Assembly (NCBI GenBank): GCA_965209035.1
Contig: OZ242372.1
Location: 96,001 to 160,000, forward strand
Direction of reading: 5' to 3'
Origin: Gammaproteobacteria bacterium
GTDB lineage: Bacteria; Pseudomonadota; Gammaproteobacteria; CBDBNL01; JAAOII01
DNA length: 64,000 bases
In this document: positions 27,409 to 46,983 of the stretch, one piece after another
How the letters are laid out: every line of letters begins with the position of its first letter
How positions within the stretch are numbered: the first letter of the stretch is position 1
The notes under the pieces: generated by a model
Databases searched by the model: none
Seen by the model: only the letters and a program-made list of their open reading frames with translations
Told to the model about the DNA's origin: nothing
Translations under genes and position numbers: made by a program

Positions 27409-27710
27409 ATTAAAAATGAGTGAGTGAATAAATGAATAAACGCATAAATGATGATATTAAGGGAATTATATACTTTGTTGACCCATAAAAAAGTAAGTGT
27501 CATTATTATTACATTAAATGAGAGTTGAGAAGTAAAATATGAGCATAAATACTGGTAAATACAAGGAAAAAGAGGGTTATTTTCTGTTCGCGACCTTCAG
27601 AATGGAAGTTTTGGCAGATCCCCAGGCTGTTTGCAATGGATCTTGAGGCAAATGGCAAATTTTTTGAAGTGCATAGGTTGTCAAGTGTATCATTCCCGAT
27701 ATTAATTAAA

Positions 27711-27772
27711 TGTATAGTCCCACCCATTTTCGGACTTTTGGTGTTTTTGCAAGAACCGGAAAGACGAGAGTT
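27711..27772 (-). mobile_element. IS481-family right-end remnant (short, diverged)
   Basis: TGTATAGTCCCACCCATTTTCGGACTTTT...GAGAGTT is homologous to the reverse complement of the element end at 46947. Confidence 0.75.
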
Positions 27773-27867
27773 ATTGTGGGAAAAACAAACTAAAACCTGC
27801 GACCCAATCCATTCGGAAGAAAAGAGGGCACTGAAAATAGCCGGAATACCTATTCTGTTGAGATGTT

Positions 27868-28770
27868 TCACTCCCGGGCGGGTTTGTTTTTTGACGGATC
27901 GTATTTGTCTATTTCTTTAATAATCCAATTGTTTTCTTTAAAAAATTTGTTGCGGGAATACAGACGCGCCAAAAAACGCAGTGTTGATAACGAACCCACT
28001 TCTTCTATCATTGATGAATGGTCGTCTGTCGCGACAATATTTTCTTCAACAAAAGAAAAAATTTCTTGTTGAATCTTATAAAGATCCCCCGTATGTTTTT
28101 TGAATAAGTTCAGTGCATGTAATTTCTTACCCCATTCTTTCCAATGGTCGTCAACATATTTTTTAATGCCACTTTCTTCCAGCATTTCCCAGCCAAGTTC
28201 GGTCATATCAAGAGGAGAAAACTCTGTGGCAGCCAGTACTTTTATGGCATCACCCTTCTTGCCCAAAAGCATCAACTGCAAAGTTTTGCAAACAGACCTG
28301 AAACCTTTTTTTGTTACTTCCTCAAACTCTTTTTGTTCTGTTCTGACTCTCGCAATATCCTCTTTGAGTTCCGTTCTGACTCTCGCAATATCCTCTTTTT
28401 GTCCTATTCTGACTTCAGTAATTTCTTCTTTGACTTCCTCTATATTAACTTCTATTTTGTGATTTGTTTTTCCCACTGCCTGGTATAACGAAACTATGGC
28501 ATATTCGCCGATCAGACCAAGAATGAACACAAAAAAAGCCAACAGAAAAAGAATAAACCAACTGCCCTCCGGTATCAATTTGTATGTAAGGGCGGAATCG
28601 TAAAGGGTAAGAGAAGAGAATACTGTAAATACAATCAATCCGATTGCACACAAGATGTATGTCATAACGCTTATTTTTGCTTCCGACTGACCAATGTTAT
28701 ATTGCTTGGCCGGTTTTTCCTCGACTGTGTTGTAGTCTATATCCTCTTTTGTCATTTTTCTTAAATTCAT
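27868..28770 (-). CDS. Two-TM plus coiled-coil hypothetical protein (paralog of 61915 and 62911)
   Basis: Shared motifs IGEYA, SPL(D/N)MT, ESG..YVD.H, GDLY, LY.RN.FFKEN.W, IDKY; 11-aa repeat EDIARVRTE x2. ATG 28770 chosen by 5' homology to the other copies. Confidence 0.75.
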   Translation of the reverse strand: MNLRKMTKEDIDYNTVEEKPAKQYNIGQSEAKISVMTYILCAIGLIVFTVFSSLTLYDSALTYKLIPEGSWFILFLLAFFVFILGLIGEYAIVSLYQAVGKTNHKIEVNIEEVKEEITEVRIGQKEDIARVRTELKEDIARVRTEQKEFEEVTKKGFRSVCKTLQLMLLGKKGDAIKVLAATEFSPLDMTELGWEMLEESGIKKYVDDHWKEWGKKLHALNLFKKHTGDLYKIQQEIFSFVEENIVATDDHSSMIEEVGSLSTLRFLARLYSRNKFFKENNWIIKEIDKYDPSKNKPARE

Positions 28771-28968
28771 AAAATAACCTATAAAATTATAACATCTTTT
28801 GCTGTATTTTTTACGCATCAGCAAGAAAGTTATTTGATGTCATTGAAATTAGGTTTCAAATTCCAATGTGATTATCTGCGGTGAGAAAGCATTCTTAACT
28901 ATTTTCTTAAAACAATTCCATATTTTTGGTCCGCTATGTTGGTGTTGGTTGCGATACCGGCTTGTCGG

Positions 28969-29577
28969 TCAAAATTCAAACGAAACTTGAAACAAGGTTC
29001 CCAGGTATCGCATACGAAAACTATGAATATAACCGGCCTTGGCGCCCAGCATCCACACAACAGACCCGGTTTCCCACAGATAACCGGCGCCAAGTGCCGC
29101 TCTGTAATCTGTTGTTGACCTTGCCGGTAAGGAGCCGACAAACTCGTTGGCGGAGCTCACCTGCCGGCGAGCATTCAACTCCAGCCGCACAATACCCACT
29201 TCGGTGATGACGAGCGGCTTGAAATATCGCGCCCAACGGAGACGCCGGGCAAATCGGTACACACTGCCGATTTCTTCGGCACTCCCCACTTCGTCTTTAA
29301 TGTGATAATCGTATTCGGCAAAGGTAAGATCCAGCCAATGGAAATTATCGCGCCCTTGACGGAACAAGGAGGAGTAACCGTAACCCAAAGAAGAAAACCC
29401 TTTTGCTTCTTTCTGTTCCAGAATAACGGAAACTCCGTATGCCAGAACCCGGTTGGGCAAAAATAAGAATAAGAACAAGCAAAAAAGACAACCGGCAAAC
29501 AGGCGATGTCGCGACAGAGCAAGGCGGATAGCAGCCTGCGGATTGTCTTTTTCGGTTCCCGTCTGCGGCAGGCTCAT
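28969..29577 (-). CDS. Putative outer-membrane beta-barrel protein, last gene of the T4SS-like operon
   Basis: Hydrophobic signal segment, amphipathic beta strands, C-terminal VSFEF beta-signal; start overlaps the virB10-like stop. Confidence 0.6.
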   Translation of the reverse strand: MSLPQTGTEKDNPQAAIRLALSRHRLFAGCLFCLFLFLFLPNRVLAYGVSVILEQKEAKGFSSLGYGYSSLFRQGRDNFHWLDLTFAEYDYHIKDEVGSAEEIGSVYRFARRLRWARYFKPLVITEVGIVRLELNARRQVSSANEFVGSLPARSTTDYRAALGAGYLWETGSVVWMLGAKAGYIHSFRMRYLGTLFQVSFEF

Positions 29578-30701
29578 CAGAAAGAGCGACCAAAACGCAC
29601 CAAGGCATCACCGGGCGAAACTTCCACGGAAAAGTTTGGCGCACGCGGCAAGGTTCTTTGGTTTGCCTGCAAAACATCCTGTGCCACACCGCCGGCAAGG
29701 GCTGCACCGGGGTTCCCCGGTGTCTGTCTGCTTAATTCCTCTTTTGTTGTCTCCAATACCCCGGATTTAACGGAAAGATCGGCAATTCTGTCGGAGTGGG
29801 TGATGATTGCCCCGGCAAGCCCGGCCGCCTTATTGGTTCCATGGACGGTGCCGATAATCGCATACTCTTCTCCGCCGGGCAACACCATGAGAGACAAATC
29901 CATATCCAGGCGTTGGGTGACCGGGTTAATCCGGTGGCGCGCAAAGAAGATTGTCCCTGTCGGAAGTTTCCTGTGTGTTCCAAAAAGATCCGCGGCGAGT
30001 TCCAATTCAATATCGGCCGTTTCGCTTGAAGAAACCTTCCGGGGTAAGAATACGCGCACCCAGGTCCCCGCCCGAATTCCAAACTTTTTGCGAGAACCGA
30101 AAGGGTTAAGTTCTACAGAATGCTTGAGTTCCGAGTTACCGGCATCGGTATTATTCTTTGGGCGCGAGCGCGGTGCCGGCCGTTCTTGCGCTTGTTTTTG
30201 TCCTTTTCCCGGCCGCTGTTGCGGACCTTTGGAAAGCCGGTTCTTTGCCGGTGCTGTTCCGGTCTTAACCTCAGCGGCGCGCCCCGTCGTCGCAGATGCC
30301 GGTGCCGGCCGGGCATCCTCTTTGACAACAAAATGATGTCCGAATTGTTTGGTATTCTTGCCTGTCTCCGTCAGACAGACTACCAGCTGTTCTTGTGCGT
30401 TGTAAGTTCCCTTAATCACGGTGTTACCCAGCAAGCAGCCGGGTTGCCGTTGCCCCGAAGCAAGCATCGCCGGGAAAATTTGATTGCGAATGAGGATGCC
30501 CGGATACACATTTTTACCGTCGGAATATAATTGGCCGCGTTGATCCAACAGCGTATCACTCTGCAAGCGCGTTTTGCGTTCTCTTTGGTTCCGGATCACT
30601 TCCTCGGTCCGACTGCGCAGTTCCTCTTTGGTCATAGCCGCAGACTGGGTTGCGACAGTGGTGCCCAACAACAAACTAATAAAACAAACGCTGAATCTCA
30701 T
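29577..30701 (-). CDS. VirB10/TrbI-like protein
   Basis: Pro/Lys-rich linker, then GIRAGTWV...KLPTGTIF...LPGG...AAGLAG TrbI-like C-terminal domain; operon position. Confidence 0.68.
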   Translation of the reverse strand: MRFSVCFISLLLGTTVATQSAAMTKEELRSRTEEVIRNQRERKTRLQSDTLLDQRGQLYSDGKNVYPGILIRNQIFPAMLASGQRQPGCLLGNTVIKGTYNAQEQLVVCLTETGKNTKQFGHHFVVKEDARPAPASATTGRAAEVKTGTAPAKNRLSKGPQQRPGKGQKQAQERPAPRSRPKNNTDAGNSELKHSVELNPFGSRKKFGIRAGTWVRVFLPRKVSSSETADIELELAADLFGTHRKLPTGTIFFARHRINPVTQRLDMDLSLMVLPGGEEYAIIGTVHGTNKAAGLAGAIITHSDRIADLSVKSGVLETTKEELSRQTPGNPGAALAGGVAQDVLQANQRTLPRAPNFSVEVSPGDALVRFGRSF

Positions 30702-31557
30702 TGTTGTCGGCTGTCATGGTAATTTGCAGTCGGAATTTTTCTTTTATCAAAATATCGTTCTTGGTTAGGTAAATACATTCGTCTAACTTTTTCCCCGCAT
30801 CAAAGCAAAACAGACGACCTTCGACGGCGATTTCGGAACCGCTTTGATTCTGTGCCCGGACATTCAACGCGGCAAGAGAAAACTTTTTGCCGTAGTGTTC
30901 CACCCAAAAATGCAATCCATAGGCACTGTGCGGATAGTAAAGAAAGTGATCCAAGTACACATCCGCCGTCTTAAATCCGCTGTCGCCGCCGCGGAACATC
31001 TGCTTGATGTTTCTTTTACGCACACCGCGCAGCATCAATAACGCCAGATCTTCCCGATTGGTTAATGTATTCGCGGTCAGTAACCGCCTTTCGTAGTCTT
31101 CCCGCAACTGTGCCCGGATGGTTTCCACCCGATGGTTGATCAGAAAGTTTCGTTTTTCTTCGCTCAGCTCCAAGTAAACATCGCTAATGTGATCCGGGAT
31201 CCGATTGCTGACAATCAAGTTGATTGCCAAGTTGTAGCCGGCAATGCTCATATACAACTTGCCGACACGCTCGTTTTTGCCGGTTGAAGTGATTAAGAAA
31301 ACATTTTGTCCGATGAGATTGCCAACATCCCGGGTTACCGCAAAGTTCCCGGTATTGACCAGTTTGTAATTCAAAGGAGGTTTGAGTTCGGGGTCGTCCA
31401 ACAAGAACGGAAACAATAGCCTGGTGCCGAGGTTTGGAACCACCTTAAGCGTGAACTGAGTGCGCTCTTGCAATGGGATCTTGAGTACTTCGCCGCTAAA
31501 CGCATGCGCCGCATCGGACAAGAAGAGGACGCCGATTAAAGAAATTGCACGGAACAT
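30676..31557 (-). CDS. VirB9-like secreted core-complex protein
   Basis: Signal peptide (AHA|F), beta-rich two-domain layout with a helical linker; lies between the virB8-like and virB10-like genes. Confidence 0.55.
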   Translation of the reverse strand: MFRAISLIGVLFLSDAAHAFSGEVLKIPLQERTQFTLKVVPNLGTRLLFPFLLDDPELKPPLNYKLVNTGNFAVTRDVGNLIGQNVFLITSTGKNERVGKLYMSIAGYNLAINLIVSNRIPDHISDVYLELSEEKRNFLINHRVETIRAQLREDYERRLLTANTLTNREDLALLMLRGVRKRNIKQMFRGGDSGFKTADVYLDHFLYYPHSAYGLHFWVEHYGKKFSLAALNVRAQNQSGSEIAVEGRLFCFDAGKKLDECIYLTKNDILIKEKFRLQITMTADNNEIQRLFY

Positions 31558-32216
31558 ACTTCAATGCCCAAATAATTGCGCTCGGAAATGGGAACCTGAC
31601 GCATCGCCAATTCCAAGCGAAATATGCCGGAATTGTTTTGAATGTCCGCGGTAACATCGGTTTGATCGCTAATCAAAACCTTCCCCAGAAGTGAAACTTG
31701 AATATCATCCGTATTCAAATATTTCAAAATATTAAATTCGGTGAAAATAACGCGAGAAATCTGGACTCTTTGAATGATCTCGGCAAGTCTGCCGCCTTCA
31801 ATCCACTCTTTCTGGGTCTTGAGACGCAATGCGGGACACATGGCCGCCAAAGCAATTTCGGCATCCGAATACACGGTCGCCGAATTTTGGCTCAGATAAT
31901 GCGCGACAAAACGCTTGCTGACAGATTCCAATTGTGCTTCGGTAATGGGGGGCTGGCGTTGGTACTCAATGTGTCCTATAAATCTGCCGTCCTTGTCCGC
32001 CAATAGCACCGGCACAGGTCTCAAGATGAGCGCGGCAAAGATAACGCTGCCGCCGGATAAAATCACGAATAACAGAACAAACAAGCACAAGTTTTGCAAC
32101 CGAATGGCGCGCCATATGTCGCCGCCGGCGGTTCGCCCGGGCCTATCCGCAGCATGATTTAACCGCCGCAAGCCAAAACCGCGCATTAACAGATGTGTTT
32201 TTATTAAACCTTTCAA
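31536..32216 (-). CDS. VirB8-like bitopic protein
   Basis: Single TM, then NTF2-like pattern RFVAHYL...ALAAM...VP.SERNYLGIEV. Confidence 0.68.
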   Translation of the reverse strand: MKGLIKTHLLMRGFGLRRLNHAADRPGRTAGGDIWRAIRLQNLCLFVLLFVILSGGSVIFAALILRPVPVLLADKDGRFIGHIEYQRQPPITEAQLESVSKRFVAHYLSQNSATVYSDAEIALAAMCPALRLKTQKEWIEGGRLAEIIQRVQISRVIFTEFNILKYLNTDDIQVSLLGKVLISDQTDVTADIQNNSGIFRLELAMRQVPISERNYLGIEVCSVQFL

Positions 32217-32222
32217 TGTTAT

Positions 32223-33665
32223 TTACTTCGGTATTTTTTCCTCTCGGGCAACACGGGCAGCGGTACGGACATTGCCCGGCAGTTCACTGCGATCTAACTT
32301 CCCTTCGTGTGTAATAACTGTTGTTAACATCGGCGGTTTACGGGGCCGCCCACCGGTGGCGGAGCCACCCTTTTCCGATTTCTCTTGCCCGGTTTTTGGC
32401 TTTTTATTCGCCGGCTTGCTACCCGCCGATTTGCTACCCGCCGATTTGCCGCCCGCCGACTTGCCGCCTCGCGACTTGCTGCCCGCCGACTTGGAAGAGG
32501 ACCGCGGCAATTCTCTTTTTTTTGATGCCCCCGCTTCGCCGGGTAGCCGGCCGGACGGCAGCGGCACGGAAGGAGATGCGACACGCACACCCCCGGTCGC
32601 GGCAGTTGTCATCATCCGGGTCATCGCAGCCGCCGGCAATGCCAAAGCGGTTGCCATGCCTGCAATATTTCCCGGCGACATCAGGTATGTCTTTACGATC
32701 CATATGCTCGCCAACAAAGATAACCCGATCAGAATATTAACTGTGGTGATCATCACATAAAAAACGGAAACGGCAAAGGCGGGTAACCTTTCATCGGTTC
32801 CTATTGCGAATCTGAGGGCACTGATACCCAAATCGCCGATTGCCGCAACCATCACTCCTTCGGTCATTGCCCACAGAAAAATAAAAGTGGTGATCATAAA
32901 CCAATTCTTTGGAAGACTGCTATTCTTAAGAATTAAGAGTGGCAACAGAAACATTCCCAAAACATAATTAAGGACATACAAGAGGTTACGCGCATAGTTC
33001 AACAGACCATGCAAAACCATCACACCCCATTTGGAAGTCCAGGCAAGAACATATTGCGTGTATAAAGACACGGTCCTGTCCGCCAAACGCCAAATGATGT
33101 TGGTGCCGGATTTTTTGCTTTCAAATTCTTCGGTGACACTTTCCACCTGCCGCATCACACCCTCAAAAGTATAGCCGTTTGGCAAGACAGCATAAATGAC
33201 ACCGTTGGAAAACAAAGTAACCTGATGTAACAGAAACCGGTATAACGCCAGCAGCAGAACCACCAAGCCGGTCACATAAAAAATGTTCAAAACAGCCCGG
33301 GCATCCGAGGACGGTGACTGTATTTCTTGAAACAGCCTGGAACCGGCACAAATAATGATCATCGGTCCCAGTAAGGGACCCAAGAGAATGTCCGCCTTTT
33401 GCATCAGATGCTCAAAGACTGTCGTATTGTCTCTTAACCCAAGATAAAAGCGCAGCAACATCTGTCCGAGCGATAATTTGTCAAACGACTCGACGAATGT
33501 TTCCAATTTTTCATCCGGCAGGTTGTTTGCTATGTCTGCCGGCACGCCGATATCCGTGATACCCTCGGCATGTGCGGCATGCGCAGCGAGGGCCAAAAAA
33601 GAAAGAAGCAGACCGGGAATGCATAACCTCCCGTAACGAAAAAGAACAGATACCTCCGCAAGCAT
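32223..33665 (-). CDS. VirB6-like polytopic membrane protein with basic low-complexity tail
   Basis: Several TM segments; LGMFLLPL..L...W pattern; SKSAG repeats; operon position. Confidence 0.62.
   Translation of the reverse strand: MLAEVSVLFRYGRLCIPGLLLSFLALAAHAAHAEGITDIGVPADIANNLPDEKLETFVESFDKLSLGQMLLRFYLGLRDNTTVFEHLMQKADILLGPLLGPMIIICAGSRLFQEIQSPSSDARAVLNIFYVTGLVVLLLALYRFLLHQVTLFSNGVIYAVLPNGYTFEGVMRQVESVTEEFESKKSGTNIIWRLADRTVSLYTQYVLAWTSKWGVMVLHGLLNYARNLLYVLNYVLGMFLLPLLILKNSSLPKNWFMITTFIFLWAMTEGVMVAAIGDLGISALRFAIGTDERLPAFAVSVFYVMITTVNILIGLSLLASIWIVKTYLMSPGNIAGMATALALPAAAMTRMMTTAATGGVRVASPSVPLPSGRLPGEAGASKKRELPRSSSKSAGSKSRGGKSAGGKSAGSKSAGSKPANKKPKTGQEKSEKGGSATGGRPRKPPMLTTVITHEGKLDRSELPGNVRTAARVAREEKIPK
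32416..32490. repeat. 15-bp imperfect tandem repeat x5 in the virB6-like tail
   Basis: Units of TTGCTACCCGCCGAT type, encoding SKSAG/GKSAG. Confidence 0.88.
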
Positions 33666-33698
33666 TTTTTGCTGTGTGATTGCTTCTTTAATAACGCA

Positions 33699-34340
33699 TC
33701 ATTGCTCGTCGTTAAAAACCGAATACATGCCCAGCACTTGTTGGCGATGGCTCAACGCGCGCAATCGGTAACGGGTTTCATCCCGCACAGTATGCGCGTT
33801 CATGTCCGCCATGGTTCTGTATATTCCGGCAAGAAGTTGCCCTTCCGCGCTGGCGTCTTGTTTGTATGCCATTTCTTTTTCGGTTGCGCCCGCCGTCCCA
33901 ACCAGCCACTCGGTTTCGGCAATCATATCGAGCGTGTCGGCAATACCCAGAAGAACTTCCCGCGTGTTGCCTTGCGTCGCCTTGTTGGCAAGATCGCGTA
34001 TCGCTTTGGCGTCGCGATAGATCGCGCCCAGTTTCAGCGGATCCGACCCGACCGACCGTGCGGTTTCCTCCAGTTTGTCGGCGGAACTCACTAGTTTCCG
34101 AATCTCACCGGCATATACATTGCTTTTGCGAAAAAATGCCCGTTCTTGAGTCTCCGCCAACCTTTGTTGCAAGTTAATGTAGTCTTCCGTTCGCTCAATC
34201 AATGTTGTCATCTGCGTGATAATCTCGGTTAGTTTGGCGATTTCTATGGAATCCGCCGCACCGAAGGCGTCGGCACGCACCTGGGCGGATAACAGCCCGG
34301 TTATCAAGAACAATAAAATATAACGGCGTGCTTGGTTCAT
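33699..34340 (-). CDS. VirB5/TrbJ-like secreted helical protein
   Basis: Signal peptide (VRA|DAFGAAD), long amphipathic helices; between the virB4-like and virB6-like genes. Confidence 0.58.
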   Translation of the reverse strand: MNQARRYILLFLITGLLSAQVRADAFGAADSIEIAKLTEIITQMTTLIERTEDYINLQQRLAETQERAFFRKSNVYAGEIRKLVSSADKLEETARSVGSDPLKLGAIYRDAKAIRDLANKATQGNTREVLLGIADTLDMIAETEWLVGTAGATEKEMAYKQDASAEGQLLAGIYRTMADMNAHTVRDETRYRLRALSHRQQVLGMYSVFNDEQ

Positions 34341-34353
34341 CTTTTAAAGATAA

Positions 34354-36702
34354 TCAAAGATAATGCCGTAAAAGTTCCCGATAGGCATCTTGCATATCCG
34401 GATATTTTTTCATCAGGGTTTCTTTTAATTCCAAGGATTCGGCACGCGTATCCCCGATGGCTAAAAATTCCGGCGGGTAAGTCAAAAAGACATCGTGCCA
34501 TTTGCCACCAAACCCCACCATGGCCGGGCGGTGATCCGGATAGGTTTGACGATAACCGCGCCAGGTCTTATAGGCCTGTTCGTTGAGATCCGAAAAATGC
34601 TCCTTAATGCGGGAATGTCGCCCTTCCGTGTAAAGAAGATTGGTGATGTACATTTGATTGACAAGGGCCGGATCCAAGCGCGCGATGTCGTCAATCTCTT
34701 GGGTGATCAAACTGATGTAGCCACTTTCCTTGCGTCCCATCCGCGCTATCTGAACGCACAGGGTGCGGATGGTTTCTTTGTCGGCGCGAATAAACTCGTG
34801 TAACTCGTCTATGACGATAAAAGTGGGGGTGCGCCGAAAAAGTGCTTTTTGACCGTAACGCAAACTTAAAAAAGTCAGGTAGGTGATGAGGAGTTGCGGC
34901 TCGTCCTTCAGTTTTTTAAAGTCCGCGCCAAACAACGGCACATTGAGGCTCATATTATCTTCTTCCTTAAAGCGTTCGCCTATGATCGTATCCAAAAAAC
35001 TGCCGACATTCAAAATCAAATTGTCGCGCGCGTATTTTTGTTTTTCGTTTAGGCTTTTTTCCTCCAATTCCCCGAGTCCCATATGAAAATGCGCCAAAGT
35101 CGGCGCCTTATGCACCGAGTGTTTCTTTACAAACTGTTCGTTATAGATATTCCGAATCGCCATTTCGCATACCGCCACCTCATGCACGCTCATTTCCGGT
35201 TTGCCGTCTGTGAGAATGCGGACCAGAGAGCGCACCGTCGGCGACACCAATGCCGAAGACATCTTTGCGCCGACATCGGCACACAACGGAAACGGGTTAA
35301 TGACGCTCGTATCCGGATCTATGGCAACATAGTCGCCGCCCAACATCTTAAAAAGAAACTCATAGGTATTGCCGATTTCAATCGTATAAAAGTCATAGCC
35401 GAGACCGAACAATTGCAGTATTCTGGCACAATTCATCACTCCCTTGCCGCTGCCGGTTTTGGCGATGGTCAGCGAATGATAAAATTCGCCGCCGCTTTTA
35501 TTGGTGTAATCAAAACCGACAAATGTGAAGTTGGTGCTGACAAATGCTTCCTGATGTCCGGTTCCCTGTCCGAAACACACCGCGGGCAGGAGGCTCATGA
35601 TCATTTCGGTATGATCTTGACGCATGAACTTGCCGGCATACATATTGGTCGGTAACGAATAAATGATGGCATGCTCCGTCAAATACTCGGACTCCAAGAC
35701 AGCCCCAAGCACCGCAAGTTGCTCGGACAAAGATGCCGCTTGTTCTTCTATTTCTTCCTCTGATCCGTAAAGTTTGCAGTAAAACGCATTGGTAAAGATT
35801 TGCAAGCCGTTTTCCACCACATAACGCCGCCAGGCGGAGATGTCTTCCAAACGCTTCTCGGCTTCCACATCCGCCTGCGCGATCTGTCGTTCTTGACGAA
35901 TTTCCTCGCCGCCGCTTTTACGCAGAAAATGCGCATGATCACAACGCCTCAGATAAAACGCAATATCCAACTCCACAGGCAAACACGCCACCAGATCGGT
36001 TAAGAGACGCACATTGGGTTCGGGATAAAAATACATCAAAAAAGGTTTAATCATCACCGAGTTCATACGGTAAAGCCCCCCTCTTTTTTCCCCGGTCGGT
36101 GTCAGAATGTCTCGTAACATATAACCCGATTCCGGTAATTTTTTACAGGGGTGGTAATGCGAAGATTCGTATAAGAAGCGTATTCCTTCTTCGGTACTCA
36201 GAAATCGCAGATCGCGAAAACCGCGCAATCCTTTTTGGCAATATTCTTCAAGTTTTGTGCAATTTTGTATTGCCTCTTCCAAAATCCGTTCGGGACCATC
36301 GGCAACGAACAAATTTAACAGATTGCGGGCAAGTGTCCCAGGTCTGTGCCACTGAATCACAACAAATATCCGATTAAGGTAAAAATAGTCGGCAAGATGT
36401 TTCATATAGGTCTTCCTTAAAGAACTCAAAACAACGGATTCTCTTTTCAGTGGCTGATTGCCAAACATTGCCGCATTCCGTTTGTCCCGTCTGCGTCTGA
36501 TATGAAACTCCAACGAAACTTCAAAGGGGGCGGTATCAATGAGAGCGCGCAAGCCATTCAAGTAAGTGCCGGCCGTCTCTTCGGATGCCATGTAGATATC
36601 GTAGCCTTCTATTTCGGCGATTACGCTTAGGGTCCCGTCCGTGTGAAGAAAGTAACGCTCGCCCAGGGGGCGCCAACCTTTCAGTGCATGTTCAAGTCGC
36701 AA
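34354..36702 (-). CDS. virB4: VirB4-family T4SS ATPase
   Basis: 782 aa; Walker A AKTGSGKG, INPF, Walker B FIVIDELH, ARMGRK..ITQ. Confidence 0.85.
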   Translation of the reverse strand: MRLEHALKGWRPLGERYFLHTDGTLSVIAEIEGYDIYMASEETAGTYLNGLRALIDTAPFEVSLEFHIRRRRDKRNAAMFGNQPLKRESVVLSSLRKTYMKHLADYFYLNRIFVVIQWHRPGTLARNLLNLFVADGPERILEEAIQNCTKLEEYCQKGLRGFRDLRFLSTEEGIRFLYESSHYHPCKKLPESGYMLRDILTPTGEKRGGLYRMNSVMIKPFLMYFYPEPNVRLLTDLVACLPVELDIAFYLRRCDHAHFLRKSGGEEIRQERQIAQADVEAEKRLEDISAWRRYVVENGLQIFTNAFYCKLYGSEEEIEEQAASLSEQLAVLGAVLESEYLTEHAIIYSLPTNMYAGKFMRQDHTEMIMSLLPAVCFGQGTGHQEAFVSTNFTFVGFDYTNKSGGEFYHSLTIAKTGSGKGVMNCARILQLFGLGYDFYTIEIGNTYEFLFKMLGGDYVAIDPDTSVINPFPLCADVGAKMSSALVSPTVRSLVRILTDGKPEMSVHEVAVCEMAIRNIYNEQFVKKHSVHKAPTLAHFHMGLGELEEKSLNEKQKYARDNLILNVGSFLDTIIGERFKEEDNMSLNVPLFGADFKKLKDEPQLLITYLTFLSLRYGQKALFRRTPTFIVIDELHEFIRADKETIRTLCVQIARMGRKESGYISLITQEIDDIARLDPALVNQMYITNLLYTEGRHSRIKEHFSDLNEQAYKTWRGYRQTYPDHRPAMVGFGGKWHDVFLTYPPEFLAIGDTRAESLELKETLMKKYPDMQDAYRELLRHYL

Positions 36703-36712
36703 TAGGGCCTCT

Positions 36713-36982
36713 TCATTCGTATATCCGTCCGGCTCGTCGCAGGATCCTAGCCCTATTGATTGCCGGCAAGATCACCGCTCGTTGTCCGATCTTCATTATT
36801 TGATATATTTTTGTCACAATCAAGATCAAACTAAAAACGATGAACGGACGCAAAATATTCACATCCTTCACCGGCAATAATAAGACGACAACCAAAAGAA
36901 ACGCGGTCGCTGCGAGGGTCACTGCCGGCAATGGGATACCAAAAAGATATCTTGGTAATAGCCTCCCGTTATATGCCGCCAT
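36713..36982 (-). CDS. VirB3-like small membrane protein
   Basis: 89 aa from ATG 36982; PRYLFGIP followed by two TMs; directly upstream of virB4. Confidence 0.65.
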   Translation of the reverse strand: MAAYNGRLLPRYLFGIPLPAVTLAATAFLLVVVLLLPVKDVNILRPFIVFSLILIVTKIYQIMKIGQRAVILPAINRARILRRAGRIYE

Positions 36983-36993
36983 TTGTCGCCCTT

Positions 36994-37314
36994 TTAGCCG
37001 ACAAAGCCGGCAAACAATGCCGGTAATGTCGTTATCATCAGTAGTACCAATGCCGCTGCGCCCAACTTGAACGCTCGGCCTTTTATGTCCTCGGCATCCT
37101 TCCCGACCATCAAATCCTTGGCAAATAAAACGGCAAAAAGTGCCCATATCCCCCAGAGAAAAGAAGTCAAGAAGTTAAGTGCTCCGCTCATAAAACGCCC
37201 AAGCGTTTGAGTCGCGTCGCCTCCGCTTTGTAAGTATTCCGGTAAGGTACCTACCGCGAGAACGATTGTCTCGTAGGGCATCACACCGATAATACCAATA
37301 AGAATAATAAACAT
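36994..37314 (-). CDS. VirB2/TrbC-like pilin
   Basis: 106 aa; signal-like N-terminus plus two hydrophobic helices separated by a charged loop; first gene of the operon. Confidence 0.62.
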   Translation of the reverse strand: MFIILIGIIGVMPYETIVLAVGTLPEYLQSGGDATQTLGRFMSGALNFLTSFLWGIWALFAVLFAKDLMVGKDAEDIKGRAFKLGAAALVLLMITTLPALFAGFVG

Positions 37315-37507
37315 AGCCTTTATTTCCGCTTACTCCTAAAGTTATCACAAAAGTAATCTTCCGTAGAAAACTACTTTGGTGTTATTATAGAAATAAAAAC
37401 CAAAAATAACACAAAAAAATCGGTTTTTTTTCGTTTTTTAAAAATTCCCGGAAATGAGGCACCGGCGGAAGGACAAGATAAAGACTGCATAAGCGGCACC
37501 CACCCAC

Positions 37508-38206
37508 TTATAACAGGCCCTCTTCACTGAACGACAAGGTTTTGCTGCCGCCAATGATGAAGTGATCCAACAACCGTATATCCACCAATTCACAAGCATC
37601 TTTTACCCGCCTTGTGATGCGTTTGTCCGCCTCGCTTGGTTCCGTGAAGCCGGAAGGATGATTATGGGCGATGACAATGGCAGCCGCATTAACCTTAAGG
37701 GCATAACGAATAATCTCGCGCGGATAGACACGCGCGGAATCAATAGTCCCTTGGAACATCTCACGGAACTCCAATATGCGATGCTTGTTATCCATGAAAA
37801 TGCAAGCAAAAACCTCATTGCCTCTGCTGCCAAGGACATGCGACAAGTATTCGCGCATGCGTTTAACGGAGGTAATGGGGTCGGTTTCGCGGCGTAAAAT
37901 GTCTTCCAAGTAGCGGCGCGCCAATTCTATGATGGCGCGAAACTGCACATACTTGGCTTCGCCCAGCCCTTTTTCTTGACAAAACTCTTTCTTGCTGCTT
38001 TCCAACAACCATTTGAGTCCGCGCTTGTCTATGAGTTCTTCCGCCAATGCCATCACGCCCTTGCCGGTATAGCCGACACGCAGAAAGATTGCGAGAAGTT
38101 CTTTGTCGCTCAGATGACGGGCACCATACCGCAAGAGTTTTTCTCGCGGTCTGTCTTCGCCGGGGCGCCAATGGTTATTCTGAGGTGCTCTGCCGTCGGT
38201 GGACAT
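37508..38206 (-). CDS. radC: RadC (JAB domain, full length)
   Basis: RPREKL..G...LSD.ELLAIFL, GLGEAK, GTID..VYPREI, HNHPSG, LLDH. Confidence 0.95.
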   Translation of the reverse strand: MSTDGRAPQNNHWRPGEDRPREKLLRYGARHLSDKELLAIFLRVGYTGKGVMALAEELIDKRGLKWLLESSKKEFCQEKGLGEAKYVQFRAIIELARRYLEDILRRETDPITSVKRMREYLSHVLGSRGNEVFACIFMDNKHRILEFREMFQGTIDSARVYPREIIRYALKVNAAAIVIAHNHPSGFTEPSEADKRITRRVKDACELVDIRLLDHFIIGGSKTLSFSEEGLL

Positions 38207-39774
38207 CCGGACGTGCCTGCTCTATGAGTTTTCCGGCATAGTCTGGGACGTCGTTTTTTAGCCTCTCGCCGCCTATCATTCTGCCTCTTTTAATTTTTCT
38301 TTCCATAGTGGATGGTATTTTGTTGAAAGCATTTTATTTTTTTAATGAAACTCCTTGTCAATTGTTTTAGTTTTTGTAACCGCCGTAACCGTATAGCACG
38401 CATCCGCATGCACCGCAATCCGCGGGTGATGCGTAATACAAATAACTTGCGTGTTGCCGCCCAAGAGCGCAAGAGTTTTTCTCGCGGTTGCCTTCGCCGG
38501 GGCGCCAATGGTTATTCTGAGGTGCTCTGCCGTCAGTGGACATCCGGACGTGCCTGCTCTATGAGTTTGCCGGCATAGTCCGGGACGTCGTTTTTTAGCC
38601 TCTCGCCGCCTATCATTCTGCCTCTTTTAATTTTTCTTTCCATAGTTGATGGTATTTTGTTGAAAGTATTTTAATGGAACTCCTTGTCAATTGTTTTAGT
38701 TTTTGTAACCGCCGTAACCGTATAGCACGCATCCGCATGCACCGCAATCCGCGGGTGATGCGTAATACAAATAACTTGCGTGTTGCCGCCCAAGAGCGCA
38801 AGAGTTTTTCTCGCGGTTGCCTTCGCCGGGGCGCCAAGGGTTATTTTGAGATACTCCTCTGCCGTCAGTGGACATCCGGACGTGCCTGCTCTGTGAGTTT
38901 GCCGGCATAGTCCGGCACGTCGTTTTTTAGCCTCTCGCCGCCTATCATTCTGCCTCTTTTAATTTTTCTTTCCATAGTTGATGGTATTTTGTTGAAAGCA
39001 TTTTAATGGAACTCCTTGTCAATTGTTTTAGTTTTTGTAACCGCCGTAACCGTATAGCGCGCATCCGCAGGTGCCATAATCCGCGGGTGATGCGTAATAC
39101 AAATGACTTGCGTGTTGCCGCCCAAGAGCGCAAGAGTTTTTCTCGCGGTTGCCTTCGCCGGGGCGCCAAGGGTTATTTTGAGATACTCCTCTGCCGTCAG
39201 TGGACATCCGGACGTGCCTGCTCTATGAGTTTGCCGGCATAGTCCGGCACGTCGTTTTTTAGCCTCTCGCCGCCTATCATTCTGCCTCTTTTAATTTTTC
39301 TTTCCATAGTTGATGGTATTTTGTTGAAAGCATTTTAATGGAACTCCTTGTCAATTGTTTTAGTTTTTGTAACCGCCGTAACCGTATAGCGCGCATCCGC
39401 AGGTGCCATAATCCGCGGGTGATGCGTAATACAAATAACTTGCGTGTTGCCGCCCAAGAGCGCAAGAGTTTTTCTCGCGGTTGCCTTCGCCGGGGCGCCA
39501 AGGGTTATTTTGAGATACTCCTCTGCCGTCAGTGGACATCCGGACGTGCCTGCTCTATGAGTTTGCCGGCATAGTCAAGCACGTCGTTTTTTAGCCTCTC
39601 GCCGCCTATCATTCTGCCAATTTCAGTTTTTCTTTCCATAGTTGAAAGTATTTTAATGGAACTCGTTGTTAAATTTTCTTTTTTGGTTTTTGTAACCGCA
39701 TAGTGCGCATCCGCATGCACCGCAATCTGCGGATGATGCGTAATACAAATGACTTGCGTGTTGCCGCCCAAGAG
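38131..39774. repeat. Tandem array of 5 copies of a ~313-338-bp unit (recN 3' end plus radC 5' end)
   Basis: Marker GCAAGAGTTTTTCTCGCGG at 38131, 38469, 38798, 39130 and 39462; the units align to recN's final ~80 codons and radC's first ~25 codons. Confidence 0.93.
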
Positions 39775-41193
39775 TGCCAGCATCTTGCCAACAACCGATG
39801 CCACACCGCTGCTGATTCCGCTGTCCACCTCGTCAAACACCAGGCACGGAATGGCGGAGTTGCGCGCCGCCACCAGGTTCACCGCCAATGCAATGCGGGA
39901 CAATTCGCCGCCGGAAGCAATGCGTCGCATCGGCAACAGCAGGGATTCCGGCCCTGTGGCAAGCATAAATTCTATCACGCCGTCCCCGTTTTCGGTCAGT
40001 CTTTCCAGCCGTGAGAATTGAGTGGCAAACTTACATTCCATGTCCAGTTCGCGCAGTTTGGCTGCCACTTCTTGGTCAAAGCGGGCCGCCGCCAATCTGC
40101 GTTTCTCGGTCAGGCTGTGCGCCAGTTCGCGGCATTTCTCCTCCGTTTCTTTTTCCATACGCGTCAAGTTGCCTATCTTTTCTTCATTGCTGTCCAGTTC
40201 TTCCAATTCTTTCTGTTTGCTTAATTTAAGAGATTCCAAGTTACCCGGCTCCGTCCGATGTTTGCGCGCCAACCGGTGAATTGCACTCATCTTGGCGTCC
40301 AGGCCCGCAAAATCAAGTGTCTCGCTGTTGGCTTTGTCCGCGTAAGATTGTAATTCCGCACGCAAGTTTTCCAACAGTTTGCGGCCACTTTCCGGTTGGC
40401 TCGCCAGTTCACTTAAAAATTTGTCGTTTGCCTGTTGCAATTTACTTTGTAATTCGTTAAGTTGTTGGGTTAAACCGGAACTGTCTTGGTTGTCCAGTAT
40501 TTGCATACAGTCTTCCAGGGACTGGTTGAGAATCTCGCTATTATTGCTCAAGCGATGCTGTTCTTCCAGTTCCGTATAGTCCTTTTGCGACAAAGCGATT
40601 TCTTCCAACTCCGCCAGTTCGTGTCTGAGGAGGCTGAGCATGCGCTCGTCCGTTTGGCCTGTTTGCCGTCTTGTCGTGAGTTCGCGCCGCAATTCCAGCA
40701 GTTTTTCATACACGGCGCGGTATGCCGCAGATTCTTTGCCGGTTCCGCCGAAATCGTCAATGAACCGGATGTGCGTGTGCCGTTGCATCAGAAGTTGGTG
40801 GGCATGCTGTCCTTGCAAACTAATCAGTAAGCTTGCCACTTCTTTCATATCTTGCAAGGTAGCGGGCACTCCGTTAATAAAAGACTTTGAACCGCTGCCG
40901 CTTAAACTTCTGCGCAAAATGCATTCGTTATCCTGAAACAGGTCGCGTTTTTCCAGCCAAGCGCGAACTTGAGGTAACTTTTCCGTTTCAAAAATGGCGC
41001 TAATTTCGGCGCGAACTTTTTGGTTGCGGATCAGAGAGGGGCTGCCGCGTTCGCCGAGTGTCAAACCAAGTGCGTTCAAAATGATAGACTTGCCGGCACC
41101 CGTTTCGCCCGTAATCACATTCATTGCGGGATGAAACTCCAGTTCCAGTTTGTCAACCAGAACAAAATTACCGACCGAGAGTTGGGTTAGCAT
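39529..41193 (-). CDS. recN: DNA repair protein RecN
   Basis: ITGETGAGKS, ASGGELSR, VFDEVDSG, CITH. Confidence 0.95.
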   Translation of the reverse strand: MLTQLSVGNFVLVDKLELEFHPAMNVITGETGAGKSIILNALGLTLGERGSPSLIRNQKVRAEISAIFETEKLPQVRAWLEKRDLFQDNECILRRSLSGSGSKSFINGVPATLQDMKEVASLLISLQGQHAHQLLMQRHTHIRFIDDFGGTGKESAAYRAVYEKLLELRRELTTRRQTGQTDERMLSLLRHELAELEEIALSQKDYTELEEQHRLSNNSEILNQSLEDCMQILDNQDSSGLTQQLNELQSKLQQANDKFLSELASQPESGRKLLENLRAELQSYADKANSETLDFAGLDAKMSAIHRLARKHRTEPGNLESLKLSKQKELEELDSNEEKIGNLTRMEKETEEKCRELAHSLTEKRRLAAARFDQEVAAKLRELDMECKFATQFSRLERLTENGDGVIEFMLATGPESLLLPMRRIASGGELSRIALAVNLVAARNSAIPCLVFDEVDSGISSGVASVVGKMLALLGGNTQVICITHHPQIAVHADAHYAVTKTKKENLTTSSIKILSTMERKTEIGRMIGGERLKNDVLDYAGKLIEQARPDVH

Positions 41194-45643: not shown

Positions 45644-46947
45644 TGCATGATCTCATAAAGGTTCTGGACTCTGAGTTTGGTATTGTGCGTCCTCAGATCA
45701 AGCAGCCGGATGTTCTGTCGGACGGGTCGAAAATAGATCCGGCAACGGGTCTCCGGTATGTGGAGCTAGATGAATGAAACGGGCAAGAAAGATGGATAGC
45801 TGTTTTGCTCTCACCGCCGCAGACAGCGGAGGCTTGTTGTTGATAAAACTGTCTAGGTGTATCCGCTGGCAAGACGGTACGGTGTGCGAGAGCGGCTGCA
45901 CCGCGGAGGTGATTTGAAATGAGAGGAACACGTTTACACTACATTGGTTATCGCGTGCGCGGTTTCAATAAAATGGTGGTTTTAGCAAACAAATATTCAA
46001 ACATGTCTAAAACCACCAAAATCAAACTGGACACCTTAGCGTTCGCGCGCAAACATGGTGTCGCGGCCGCGTTGGATCATGCCAGGATCAGTCGTGCTAC
46101 ATTCTACGAGTGGCAGCGGCGTTTCCGTGAAGGCGGGGTCGATGAACTGGCGAACAACTATGGGTATCAGCCCAAGCGGTCCAACACCTGGCCACCGGCA
46201 CTGATTACCAAGATCCGATCTTGGCGACAAGAGCGTCCGAACATCGGTGCCGGTAAACTGGTCTGCTTGTTACCCGAATGGTGTCAGCAGCGCGGGCTGC
46301 CGCTGCCCAGCCAATCAACGCTCTCTCGCATCATTGCCGATGACCCGGATAAGATGCGGTGCAAACCATCGCGGTCCGTGCCGAAACGCCTGCGGCAAGG
46401 TGCTCCGCGCGAGCGCAAGGACATCCGCTTTGTTGCGGGCCGGAGAGGTGAATGTGTTGCCTTTGATACGCTCGTCCGCATCGTCGATGGCCGGCGCTTT
46501 TATTGGCATGTCGGCATTGATCTATTTTCCCGCTTCTCACTGGTCAGTGTCGACACCTCGGCTGCTTCGGCCAGTTCCGCCCAGCTCTTTACCGCCATGC
46601 AAAACATACTCGGCACTCGGATCGAAAAAGTCCTCACCGATAATGGCAGTGAGTTCGCCAAAGACTTTCACCGGGTCGTGACCGCAAACGGCAGCACCCA
46701 CTGGTATACCTATCCAAGGAAACCGCAAATGAATGCACACTGCGAACGGTTTAATCGCACTCTCTGGGAAGAGTTCGGTTGTCATATGCGGCATCTCTTG
46801 GTTAAGGATATGCCAGCATTCAACGCCAAACTCATCGAGTGGTTGGCTTGGTATAATCTGGAACGTCCCCATTATGCTCTCAAACAACTCTCGCCAATCC
46901 AGTTTTTGCAAAAACAAAAAAAGTCCAGAAATGGGTGGGATCATACA
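45644..46947 (+). mobile_element. IS481-family insertion sequence (~1304 bp)
   Basis: Imperfect IRs TGCATGATCTCA...TCTGGACT / AGTCCAGA...TGGGATCATACA; 5-bp direct repeat ATGAT at 45639-45643 and 46948-46952. Confidence 0.78.
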
Positions 46948-46983
46948 ATGATTAACAAAAGATTCTCAATTCCCGTAAGATAG
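45919..46983 (+). CDS. IS481-family transposase (HTH plus rve integrase core)
   Basis: ISRATFYEW HTH; VAFDT, LTDNGSEF, CERFNRT, YNLERPH; GGAGG RBS. Confidence 0.9.
   Translation: MRGTRLHYIGYRVRGFNKMVVLANKYSNMSKTTKIKLDTLAFARKHGVAAALDHARISRATFYEWQRRFREGGVDELANNYGYQPKRSNTWPPALITKIRSWRQERPNIGAGKLVCLLPEWCQQRGLPLPSQSTLSRIIADDPDKMRCKPSRSVPKRLRQGAPRERKDIRFVAGRRGECVAFDTLVRIVDGRRFYWHVGIDLFSRFSLVSVDTSAASASSAQLFTAMQNILGTRIEKVLTDNGSEFAKDFHRVVTANGSTHWYTYPRKPQMNAHCERFNRTLWEEFGCHMRHLLVKDMPAFNAKLIEWLAWYNLERPHYALKQLSPIQFLQKQKKSRNGWDHTMINKRFSIPVR

What the first reader, a model, noticed from the sequence alone, without database searches (positions are those of the whole stretch)
28969..37314. Stand-alone reduced VirB-type T4SS operon with no VirB11, VirD4, relaxase or integrase, downstream of chromosomal radC
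Seen: nine tightly packed or overlapping - strand genes. Their order and features match virB2-B3-B4-B5-B6-B8-B9-B10 plus a beta-barrel gene, but only VirB4 has unambiguous motifs. The operon sits among housekeeping genes (folB-folK-hemH-recN-radC upstream, msrB downstream), with no att sites, integrase, relaxase or coupling protein in 64 kb. Known: the Helicobacter ComB DNA-uptake T4SS also lacks VirB11 and VirD4, and radC belongs to competence regulons in Haemophilus, Streptococcus and Bacillus. Inference: this is a domesticated non-conjugative T4SS, used for DNA uptake or host interaction, in a lineage where that may be undescribed.
Basis: partly seen in the sequence, partly recalled or inferred. 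Interest (0 to 1): 0.8.

Follow-up and report, generated by a model that had tools for sequence, protein, structure and literature searches.

The report
Chromosomal secretion machine without coupling protein
An uncultured marine-type gammaproteobacterial family keeps, under selection, a nine-gene conjugation-like envelope machine that has lost the parts needed to transfer DNA to other cells, so it is probably reused for something else such as DNA uptake or attachment.

Summary
The nine minus-strand genes at 28969-37314 are real and form a very divergent type IV secretion (T4SS) mating-pair-formation module: VirB2-, B3-, B4-, B5?-, B6-, B8-, B9-, B10-like genes plus a small outer-membrane protein. 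VirB4 (NCBIfam TraC-F 2.6e-24) and VirB9 (AlphaFold pLDDT 91.6; Z 12.2 to TrwF/VirB9) are solid; B10, B8, B3, B2, B6 rest on repeated sub-threshold hits; B5 is unproven. The same gene set sits on plasmid-like contigs of other Gammaproteobacteria directly behind a coupling protein, so the origin is conjugative; VirB11 is missing there too. In this genome and three near-complete relatives (3 genera) no coupling protein or relaxase was found genome-wide, the operon lies among housekeeping genes, has no tRNA/att/tyrosine integrase, and all nine genes evolve under purifying selection (dN/dS 0.04-0.28). It is therefore a domesticated, non-self-transmissible T4SS. Its use is not shown. All four genomes keep ComEC and DprA but lack type IV pili and ComEA, the Helicobacter ComB configuration, which slightly favours DNA uptake over Trw-like adhesion. 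The radC adjacency is not conserved and carries no weight. The kind (MOB-less, T4CP-less T4SS) is known; the lineage and MPF family are unannotated.

The parts
37315..37507 (-). AT-rich intergenic region between radC stop and gene 1, with an exact TATAAT and a weak hairpin after radC; probable own promoter (inferred)
   Evidence: sequence read; terminator-like hairpin 37512-37488; the promoter scan itself found no more sites than shuffles (15 vs 13.0)
36994..37314 (-). g1, 106 aa, VirB2/TrbC-like pilin: leader plus two hydrophobic helices
   Evidence: hydropathy; homologue on Tenderia plasmid hits Pfam TrbC/VirB2 7.9e-5 (23.2 bits, cut-off 27.9), L025 0.077, L027 T4SS_pilin 0.23; 58-77% identical in relatives
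36713..36982 (-). g2, 89 aa, VirB3-like membrane protein (start revised)
   Evidence: 89-91-aa homologues in L011-13, L025-28; Pfam VirB3 0.011 (L026), 0.038 (L011), 0.23 (L028), all under cut-off; one strong hydrophobic segment
34354..36702 (-). g3, 782 aa, VirB4-family ATPase, the only ATPase of the system
   Evidence: NCBIfam TraC-F-type 2.6e-24, VirB4_CagE 1.2e-14; Walker A/B conserved; 54-61% identical in G001-G003
33699..34340 (-). g4, 213 aa, secreted all-helical protein at the VirB5 position; identity unproven
   Evidence: signal peptide; Atlas 0.86 to a 'VirB5 family' cluster, a lead only; AlphaFold model all-helical but pLDDT 54.3; no Pfam hit in 8 of 8 homologues
32223..33665 (-). 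g5, 480 aa, polytopic membrane protein, VirB6/TrbL/TraJ-like, with a basic (SKSAG)n tail
   Evidence: 6 hydrophobic segments; Atlas 0.91, 193-203 of 256 features, CtnDOT_TraJ/TrbL clusters; no Pfam hit in 7 of 7 homologues; 15-nt repeats 32394-32498
31536..32216 (-). g6, 226 aa, bitopic VirB8-like protein
   Evidence: single TM at 37-55; Pfam VirB8 0.016 (L011) and 0.015 (L027, profile 18-208 of 213), under cut-off; 5 of 7 homologues no VirB8 hit
30676..31557 (-). g7, 293 aa, VirB9/TraK/DotH-like outer-membrane core subunit
   Evidence: AlphaFold2 pLDDT 91.6 on 115-sequence alignment; Foldseek ranks 1-7 all T4SS core complexes; VIA Z 12.2, rmsd 2.7, 101 of 108 residues of TrwF/VirB9 NTD; next unrelated Z 7.2
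29577..30701 (-). g8, 374 aa, VirB10/TrbI-like
   Evidence: Pfam TrbI 1.2e-3 here, 5.2e-7 to 1.9e-4 in 5 further homologues of 7 others tested, all under the 35-bit cut-off; L027 homologue passes Transposon_TraM (33.5 vs 25.1 bits)
28969..29577 (-). g9, 202 aa, small outer-membrane beta-barrel-like protein linked to the module
   Evidence: signal peptide, C-terminal Phe; Pfam OMP_b-brl 0.005-0.096 in three plasmid homologues, under cut-off; stays with the cluster in L011-13, L025, L026, L028 and, moved upstream of the pilin gene, in L035

Best explanation
The operon encodes an intact envelope-spanning T4SS (pilin, VirB3/VirB4 inner-membrane motor, VirB6/VirB8 channel parts, VirB9/VirB10 outer-membrane core, one small outer-membrane protein) that descends from a poorly sampled family of conjugative plasmids but has lost the coupling protein and all DNA-processing genes and has become a vertically inherited chromosomal trait of this gammaproteobacterial family. 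Without a coupling protein it cannot recruit cytoplasmic substrates in the usual way; what VirB4 alone can still drive is assembly (and perhaps retraction) of a pilus or pseudopilus through the outer-membrane core. My committed reading is that this works like Helicobacter ComB: the pilus/pseudopilus brings double-stranded DNA into the periplasm and ComEC plus DprA take it on. Shown: gene content, origin, absence of T4CP/relaxase, selection. Inferred: pilus formation, DNA uptake. I put about 0.85 on 'intact, selected, not self-transmissible T4SS' and 0.35 on the DNA-uptake use; the figure below is for the whole statement.
For: T4SS identity. Conjugative origin: same gene order directly behind a 531-535-aa T4CP (TraG-D_C 4.3e-6, over cut-off, TrwB_AAD_bind 1.2e-3 in L026) on contigs with Rep3/TrfA, ParA/ParB, toxin-antitoxin genes, and on the Ca. 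Tenderia electrophaga plasmid CP013100.1. Loss: PF02534 0 of 5 genomes, PF10412 and PF12696 only in G004 (an unrelated island), relaxase families PF03432, PF08751, PF07514, PF03389 0 of 5 each, PF13814 0 of 4 with G256 as positive control; plasmid T4CP as query: none in G000-G003, G012 while it finds G039, G256, G296. Selection: dN/dS 0.04-0.28 for the nine genes between G002 and G003, neighbours 0.013-0.15. Age: VirB4 54-61%, other eight 35-77% identical across three genera, like GspD/E/F 59-69% and NadC 48%. DNA-uptake context: ComEC 4 of 4 and DprA 4 of 4 in the family; only one secretin and one T2SSE ATPase, which are GspD/GspE beside GspF, so no type IV pilus; ComEA-type HHH_3 0 of 4 in the family but 7 of 7 in other Gammaproteobacteria tested. 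ComB likewise lacks VirD4 and VirB11 and feeds ComEC without ComEA-type uptake (PMC12857230, section 20 read).
Against: No direct evidence of function or expression. ComEC and DprA are kept by many non-transformable bacteria (both ring in E. coli among the controls), and loss of ComEA could equally mean that transformation is gone. ComB has no VirB5, whereas a VirB5-position gene is kept here. Other T4CP-less carriers of this module do have PilT-type pili and ComEA (G012; G186 has PilT), so the pattern is not general. radC adjacency is not conserved. Absence of VirB11 is ancestral to the module, so it says nothing about function. Unknown, unrecognisable coupling proteins or relaxases cannot be excluded by profile searches; G000 is 92.7% complete.
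Confidence: 0.35

Rival explanations
1. Adhesive or contact pilus, as proposed for Bartonella Trw: the machine only builds a VirB2 pilus tipped by the VirB5-like protein and serves attachment to a host, partner cell or surface; nothing is translocated.
For: T4CP is dispensable for pilus building in known systems and Trw lacks it (PMC12857230, section 20 read). A VirB5-position gene is kept. G003 carries a second, diverged pilin copy plus a truncated VirB3 upstream of the operon (L012 7936-8483), recalling Trw pilin amplification. The highest dN/dS values are in the presumably exposed g9, g8, g4 (0.21-0.28). Genomes are small (1.9-2.3 Mb) and rich in IS and tandem repeats, as in host-restricted bacteria (inference).
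Against: Only one extra pilin copy in 1 of 4 genomes; the pilin is among the most conserved genes (58-77% identity, dN/dS 0.058), not variable as in Trw. No evidence on habitat or host was used. VirB5 identity unproven.
Confidence: 0.3
2. Two-step protein export as in Bordetella Ptl or part of Brucella VirB secretion: Sec-exported periplasmic substrates are pushed through the VirB9/VirB10 core.
For: T4CP-less protein-exporting T4SS exist (PMC12857230 section 20; PMC3548315 passages). All envelope parts are intact.
Against: No conserved candidate substrate gene beside the operon: neighbours differ between the window, G001 and G002/G003. Ptl and Brucella systems keep VirB11; this one has VirB4 only.
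Confidence: 0.12
3. Remnant or helper of conjugation: a decaying integrated element, or an MPF used in trans by a mobilisable element that brings its own T4CP and relaxase.
For: The module is clearly of plasmid origin. T4CP-less copies recur (G012, G365, G186), which could be repeated decay. IS elements lie 6-9 kb away.
Against: All nine genes intact in 4 of 4 family genomes across three genera with dN/dS like housekeeping genes; no integrase, tRNA or att; no T4CP or relaxase anywhere in three closed or nearly closed chromosomes; VirB4 only 27-31% identical to the plasmid clade, so the chromosomal line is old.
Confidence: 0.12

Closest known systems
Helicobacter pylori ComB DNA-uptake T4SS
   Same: VirB2-4 and VirB6-10 homologues only; no VirD4, no VirB11; VirB4 the sole ATPase; host keeps ComEC and DprA and has no type IV pilus uptake route (literature: PMC12857230 section 20; here)
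   Different: ComB has no VirB5; here a VirB5-position gene and an extra small outer-membrane protein are kept. No sequence comparison with ComB proteins was possible (none in the collections at hand). Function shown for ComB, not here. Different phylum and a different MPF lineage (best hit F-type TraC).
Bartonella Trw T4SS
   Same: Plasmid-derived, chromosomal, lacks the coupling protein, thought to have kept only the pilus function
   Different: Trw keeps VirB11 and has many variable copies of pilin and VirB5 genes; here one copy each (one extra pilin in G003 only).
Unannotated MPF module of Ca. Tenderia electrophaga plasmid CP013100.1 (Tel_17025-Tel_17075) and of plasmid-like contigs in G039, G256
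   Same: Same genes in the same order: pilin, VirB3, VirB4, VirB5?, VirB6, VirB8, VirB9, VirB10, small OMP; no VirB11
   Different: These carry a T4CP directly upstream, replication/partition genes and a Replic_Relax-like gene; VirB4 only 27-31% identical to the window's. All genes annotated 'hypothetical'; PLSDB/MOB-suite calls the plasmid merely 'mobilizable'.
F-type (MPF_F) conjugation systems, TraC
   Same: TraC-F-type is the best NCBIfam model for 9 of 10 VirB4 homologues of this module (56-90 bits); in the plasmid collection 26 of 30 best and 37 of 40 evenly spread hits are annotated traC; no VirB11
   Different: Scores are far under the 567-bit cut-off, identity about 20-26% over the ATPase half only; gene order is VirB-like; none of the nine genes hits an F-specific family.
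MOB-less chromosomal T4SS as a class (Guglielmini et al. 2011, 2013) and the relaxase-less chromosomal T4SS of Patescibacteria
   Same: Chromosomal, no neighbouring relaxase or integrase, read as exaptations (PMC3548315 passages; PMC12102498 passages)
   Different: Those surveys rest on existing VirB4/MPF profiles; this module escapes Pfam and NCBIfam cut-offs. Patescibacterial systems are monoderm MPF_FATA-like and usually keep a T4CP.

Membership tests
Type IV secretion system (VirB4-based MPF) | VirB4-family ATPase with Walker A and B | tested here: met
   NCBIfam TraC-F-type 2.6e-24, VirB4_CagE 1.2e-14; motifs conserved in 10 aligned homologues except G256
Type IV secretion system (VirB4-based MPF) | VirB9-type outer-membrane core subunit | tested here: met
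   pLDDT 91.6 model; Z 12.2/rmsd 2.7 to TrwF NTD, 11.7 to X. citri VirB9 over 190 residues, 11.2 DotH, 9.1 TraK; unrelated rows 7.2 or less. Sequence profile against PDB found nothing
Type IV secretion system (VirB4-based MPF) | VirB10/TrbI subunit | tested here: inconclusive
   TrbI hit in 6 of 8 homologues, all under the gathering score; one homologue passes Transposon_TraM
Type IV secretion system (VirB4-based MPF) | VirB2 pilin, VirB3, VirB6, VirB8 | tested here: inconclusive
   only sub-threshold Pfam hits in some homologues (TrbC 7.9e-5; VirB3 0.011-0.23; VirB8 0.015, 0.016) and Atlas 0.91 to TraJ/TrbL; topologies fit
Type IV secretion system (VirB4-based MPF) | VirB5 pilus-tip protein | tested here: inconclusive
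   Atlas 0.86 lead; model pLDDT 54.3, not searched
Self-transmissible conjugative element (plasmid or ICE) | Type IV coupling protein | tested here: not met
   PF02534, PF10412, PF12696 and the module's own plasmid T4CP: none in G000-G003 (positive control)
Self-transmissible conjugative element (plasmid or ICE) | Relaxase | tested here: not met
   PF03432, PF08751, PF07514, PF03389 0 of 5 genomes; PF13814 0 of 4. MOBV, MOBT, MOBC families not searched
Self-transmissible conjugative element (plasmid or ICE) | Integrase, tRNA target, att repeats | tested here: not met
   no tRNA in 64 kb, no flanking repeat, no Phage_integrase among scanned ORFs; only IS transposases
ComB-type DNA-uptake T4SS | No VirD4 and no VirB11, VirB4 sole ATPase | tested here: met
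   the only PF00437 ATPase is GspE
ComB-type DNA-uptake T4SS | No VirB5 | tested here: inconclusive
   a gene sits at the VirB5 position but its fold is unresolved
ComB-type DNA-uptake T4SS | Takes up DNA and hands it to ComEC | not testable with these tools
   ComEC and DprA present, pili and ComEA not found; no functional data
ComB-type DNA-uptake T4SS | Common descent with ComB4 in a VirB4 tree | not tested
   no ComB sequence in the collections at hand; no tree built
MPF_F (F-type) | TraC equivalog plus F-specific genes (TraH, TraF, TraW, TraU, TraN; recalled list) | tested here: not met
   TraC-F-type 85.2 bits vs cut-off 567; no F-specific family among the nine genes
MPF_T (VirB/Trb type) | VirB11 ATPase and VirB4_CagE-class VirB4 | tested here: not met
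   no VirB11 in genome or in plasmid relatives; VirB4_CagE 53.5 bits vs cut-off 643
Trw-type adhesion T4SS | Amplified variable pilin and VirB5 genes | tested here: not met
   single copies in the window, G001, G002; one extra pilin in G003

The most novel reading that the evidence does not exclude
A second, independent invention of T4SS-mediated natural transformation: in this gammaproteobacterial family a VirB11-less, F-like-VirB4 conjugation module lost its coupling protein and replaced the type IV pilus/ComEA route as the outer-membrane DNA-uptake machine feeding ComEC and DprA, as ComB does in Helicobacter.
Probability: 0.3. Interest if true: 0.8.

Novelty: new variant of a known kind. 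Interest (0 to 1): 0.55.

Why it matters
T4SS without a coupling protein are few in the literature (Ptl, Brucella VirB, ComB, Trw), and only ComB also lacks VirB11. Here is a diderm example from another MPF lineage, fixed in a whole uncultured family, whose relatives on plasmids still conjugate-ready show exactly what was lost. It offers a natural comparison for the open question of what a VirB4-only machine can do (pilus extension and retraction, DNA import). It also shows that a whole plasmid MPF family escapes current Pfam, NCBIfam and MOB-suite detection (one full-length relative in 72,556 plasmid records, annotated 'hypothetical'), so conjugative plasmids of this kind are being scored as merely mobilisable.

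Tried and rejected
Profile searches of g6, g7, g8 alignments against PDB sequences gave nothing below E 0.06. AlphaFold of g4 on 25 sequences gave pLDDT 54.3; I did not fold-search it. Complex prediction of g9 with the C-terminal domains of g7 and g8: no verdict (scores 0.38, 0.00, 0.00). The look-up of sequencing runs: no RNA holder listed, so expression is open. Read laying: an independent DNA run (X4) gives 114 reads at 90-99% likeness over 26 of 30 bins at about 1-3x, so a related strain with the operon probably exists elsewhere, too thin to say more. The search for related loci: single-protein scan of genome contigs and the alignment scan of metagenome contigs found no relative; the alignment scan of genome contigs found 4 loci. 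Pfam on 29 of the 150 listed g7-family representatives: only one weak CagX hit (0.0035) and one DUF2381. The T4CP-like gene of G004 (72% complete, 4% contamination) was considered as a cognate coupling protein and rejected: no BLAST likeness to the module's plasmid T4CP, and it lies with bPH_2, M48 peptidase, Sel1 and an integrase, not with T4SS genes. I considered the radC neighbourhood as a competence clue and dropped it. Searches for prior description: 'CP013100' (2 papers, both on electroautotrophy, listing only), 'Tenderia electrophaga'+plasmid, T4SS/VirD4/VirB11/symbiont, ComB-like/Gammaproteobacteria: none describes this module; supplements were not read.

Full report
OBSERVATION. The window is G000:C1:96001-160000 of a 2.24-Mb, 2-contig genome, 92.7% complete. 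Nine minus-strand ORFs occupy 28969-37314 with gaps of 6-33 nt or overlaps of 1-26 nt. The second gene must be shortened to 89 aa (36713-36982): relatives have an 89-91-aa gene that starts right after the pilin stop. GC content is like the surroundings (0.45-0.51).

WHAT THE GENES ARE. Pfam and NCBIfam recognise almost nothing in the window's own proteins: VirB4 (NCBIfam TraC-F-type 2.6e-24, 85 bits against a 567-bit cut-off; VirB4_CagE 1.2e-14; Pfam P-loop_TraG 2.1e-5) and a weak TrbI hit for g8 (1.2e-3). I therefore collected homologues. The whole set recurs in the same order in three near-complete relatives of the same family (L011-L013 = G001, G003, G002) and partly in a fragment (L014), and, at 22-36% identity, in G039 (two contigs), G012, G365, G186, G256 and on the Ca. 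Tenderia electrophaga plasmid CP013100.1. Scanning 60 of these proteins at E up to 0.5 gave repeated sub-threshold hits that each fit the expected position: TrbC/VirB2 pilin (7.9e-5, 0.077), VirB3 (0.011, 0.038, 0.23), VirB8 (0.015, 0.016), TrbI (six of eight homologues counting), OMP_b-brl for g9 (0.005-0.096). g4, g5 and g7 gave nothing. For g7 a profile search of 1.84 billion representatives found 153 proteins at E 0.001 or better; a 115-sequence alignment gave an AlphaFold2 model of pLDDT 91.6 with two beta-sandwich domains joined by a long helix. Foldseek ranks 1-7 are all T4SS outer-membrane core subunits (TrwF/VirB9, X. citri VirB9, F TraK, DotH) and VIA-align gives Z 12.2 (rmsd 2.7, 101 of 108 residues) to the TrwF N-terminal domain, with unrelated rows at 7.2 or less. 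g5 resembles CtnDOT_TraJ/TrbL (VirB6 family) clusters in the ESM Atlas (0.91) and has six hydrophobic segments; g6 is bitopic; g4 and g7 have signal peptides; g9 ends in Phe. g4 has only a 0.86 Atlas lead to a 'VirB5 family' cluster and a poor model (pLDDT 54.3). So the module is a T4SS; VirB4 and VirB9 are firm, B10, B8, B6, B3, B2 probable, B5 open.

ORIGIN. On G039 C53 the module follows a 535-aa ATPase and lies with Rep3, ParA, ParB and a RES-Xre pair; on G256 C8 with TrfA, ParA, a Replic_Relax protein (25.8 bits, cut-off 25.3) and AbiE. The ATPase is a coupling protein (L026: TraG-D_C 4.3e-6, over cut-off; TrwB_AAD_bind 1.2e-3). None of these loci has a VirB11. The ancestral state is thus a conjugative plasmid MPF with T4CP and without VirB11. 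It is nearly unsampled and unannotated: 1028 of 72,556 plasmid records match the VirB4, but only the Tenderia plasmid over its length, where every gene is 'hypothetical' and MOB-suite says 'mobilizable'. NCBIfam's best model is TraC-F-type for 9 of 10 VirB4s, always far under cut-off.

WHAT WAS LOST, AND IS IT KEPT. In G000-G003 I found no T4CP by three Pfam families, by tblastn and by protein search with the module's own T4CP (the query finds G039, G256, G296). Five relaxase families gave 0 hits. The only PF00437 ATPase is GspE, next to GspD and GspF. G004, a 72%-complete bin, has a TraG-like ATPase in an unrelated island. The window has no tRNA, no att-like repeat and no tyrosine integrase, though three IS transposase genes. 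In G002/G003 the operon lies between nadC-hscB-hscA-YHYH and nfuA-gltX; radC, recN and msrB are not within 10 kb there or in G001. dN/dS between G002 and G003 is 0.04-0.28 for the nine genes and 0.013-0.15 for five housekeeping neighbours. Identities between genera (VirB4 54-61%, others 35-77%) are in the range of GspD/E/F (59-69%) and NadC (48%). The family's VirB4 is only 27-31% identical to the plasmid clade, which is 44-73% within itself. The module is therefore old, vertically kept and selected in this family. A g7 profile finds the module in 9 of 400 sampled Gammaproteobacteria; T4CP-less chromosomal copies also occur in G012 and G365 (flanked by cydAB, yajC, mutS, ggt) and probably G186, so loss of the T4CP happened more than once.

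HOW IT MAY WORK. Established knowledge (PMC12857230, section 20 read): T4CP-less T4SS export periplasmic proteins (Ptl, Brucella), take up DNA (ComB; also no VirB11 and no VirB5; works with ComEC) or make adhesive pili (Trw). The discriminating data I could get are contextual. All four family genomes keep ComEC and DprA, have no type IV pilus ATPase or second secretin and lack a ComEA-type HHH_3 protein, which 7 of 7 other Gammaproteobacteria tested have. This is the Helicobacter arrangement and tips me to DNA uptake (0.35). Against it: ComEC/DprA persist in non-competent bacteria, ComEA loss may mean loss of competence, G012 and G186 have PilT, and a VirB5-position gene is kept. The Trw-like reading (0.30) is helped by that gene and by an extra diverged pilin in G003, and hurt by the strong conservation of the pilin. 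Two-step export and relic/helper readings get about 0.12 each.

NOVELTY. MOB-less chromosomal T4SS are a recognised class read as exaptations (PMC3548315, passages), and earlier notes of this scan report analogous cases in other phyla on other DNA. New here are the lineage, the unannotated MPF family with its small outer-membrane protein, and a second candidate for a VirB4-only, ComB-like machine.

Noticed in passing
window 38132-39806: About four head-to-tail ~332-bp copies between radC and recN, seen as a ladder of 72-78-aa ORFs with 332-nt spacing; already reported by this scan (e1-4465851).
   Followed up: no
window 1219-3015, 43494-45290, 45919-46983: Two 598-aa DDE_Tnp_1 transposase ORFs with identical Pfam scores and an rve-type IS transposase; IS load in an otherwise housekeeping region.
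   Followed up: partly
window 7832-10357 and 10509-13034: Two adjacent 841-aa paralogous ORFs with a fibronectin type III domain and no other Pfam hit.
   Followed up: no
window 27500-27950: Multi-copy short element: contig depth 58-61 against 14.5 around it, several contig breaks and loose ends; the 120-aa ORF here is probably not a gene.
   Followed up: partly
window 27868-28824: 318-aa membrane plus coiled-coil ORF just downstream of the operon, low GC, with three 33-nt tandem repeats (28327-28425); no homologue near the operon in relatives.
   Followed up: partly
L011 5980-10004 (G001): VirB3 precedes the pilin gene, and about 3.4 kb of tandem repeats (repeat-derived ORFs) separate them from VirB4, yet all nine genes are intact.
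   Followed up: partly
L012 7936-8483 (G003): Second pilin gene with a diverged mature part (50% identical to the window's pilin) followed by a truncated 57-aa VirB3 and a 140-aa coiled-coil ORF.
   Followed up: partly
L039 7824-10922 (G004 C65): TrwB/TraG-like ATPase (543 aa) flanked by a bPH_2 protein, an M48 peptidase and a Sel1-repeat protein, near an integrase and a methylase-Mrr fusion; looks like an island of another function, perhaps defence.
   Followed up: partly
L037 9113-11491 (G256 C8): The plasmid-borne VirB4 of G256 has altered Walker A (TRGGKD) and Walker B (LLNE), unlike the other nine homologues.
   Followed up: no
window 32394-32498: Six 15-nt tandem units inside g5 encode a basic (SKSAG)n tail of the VirB6-like protein.
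   Followed up: no
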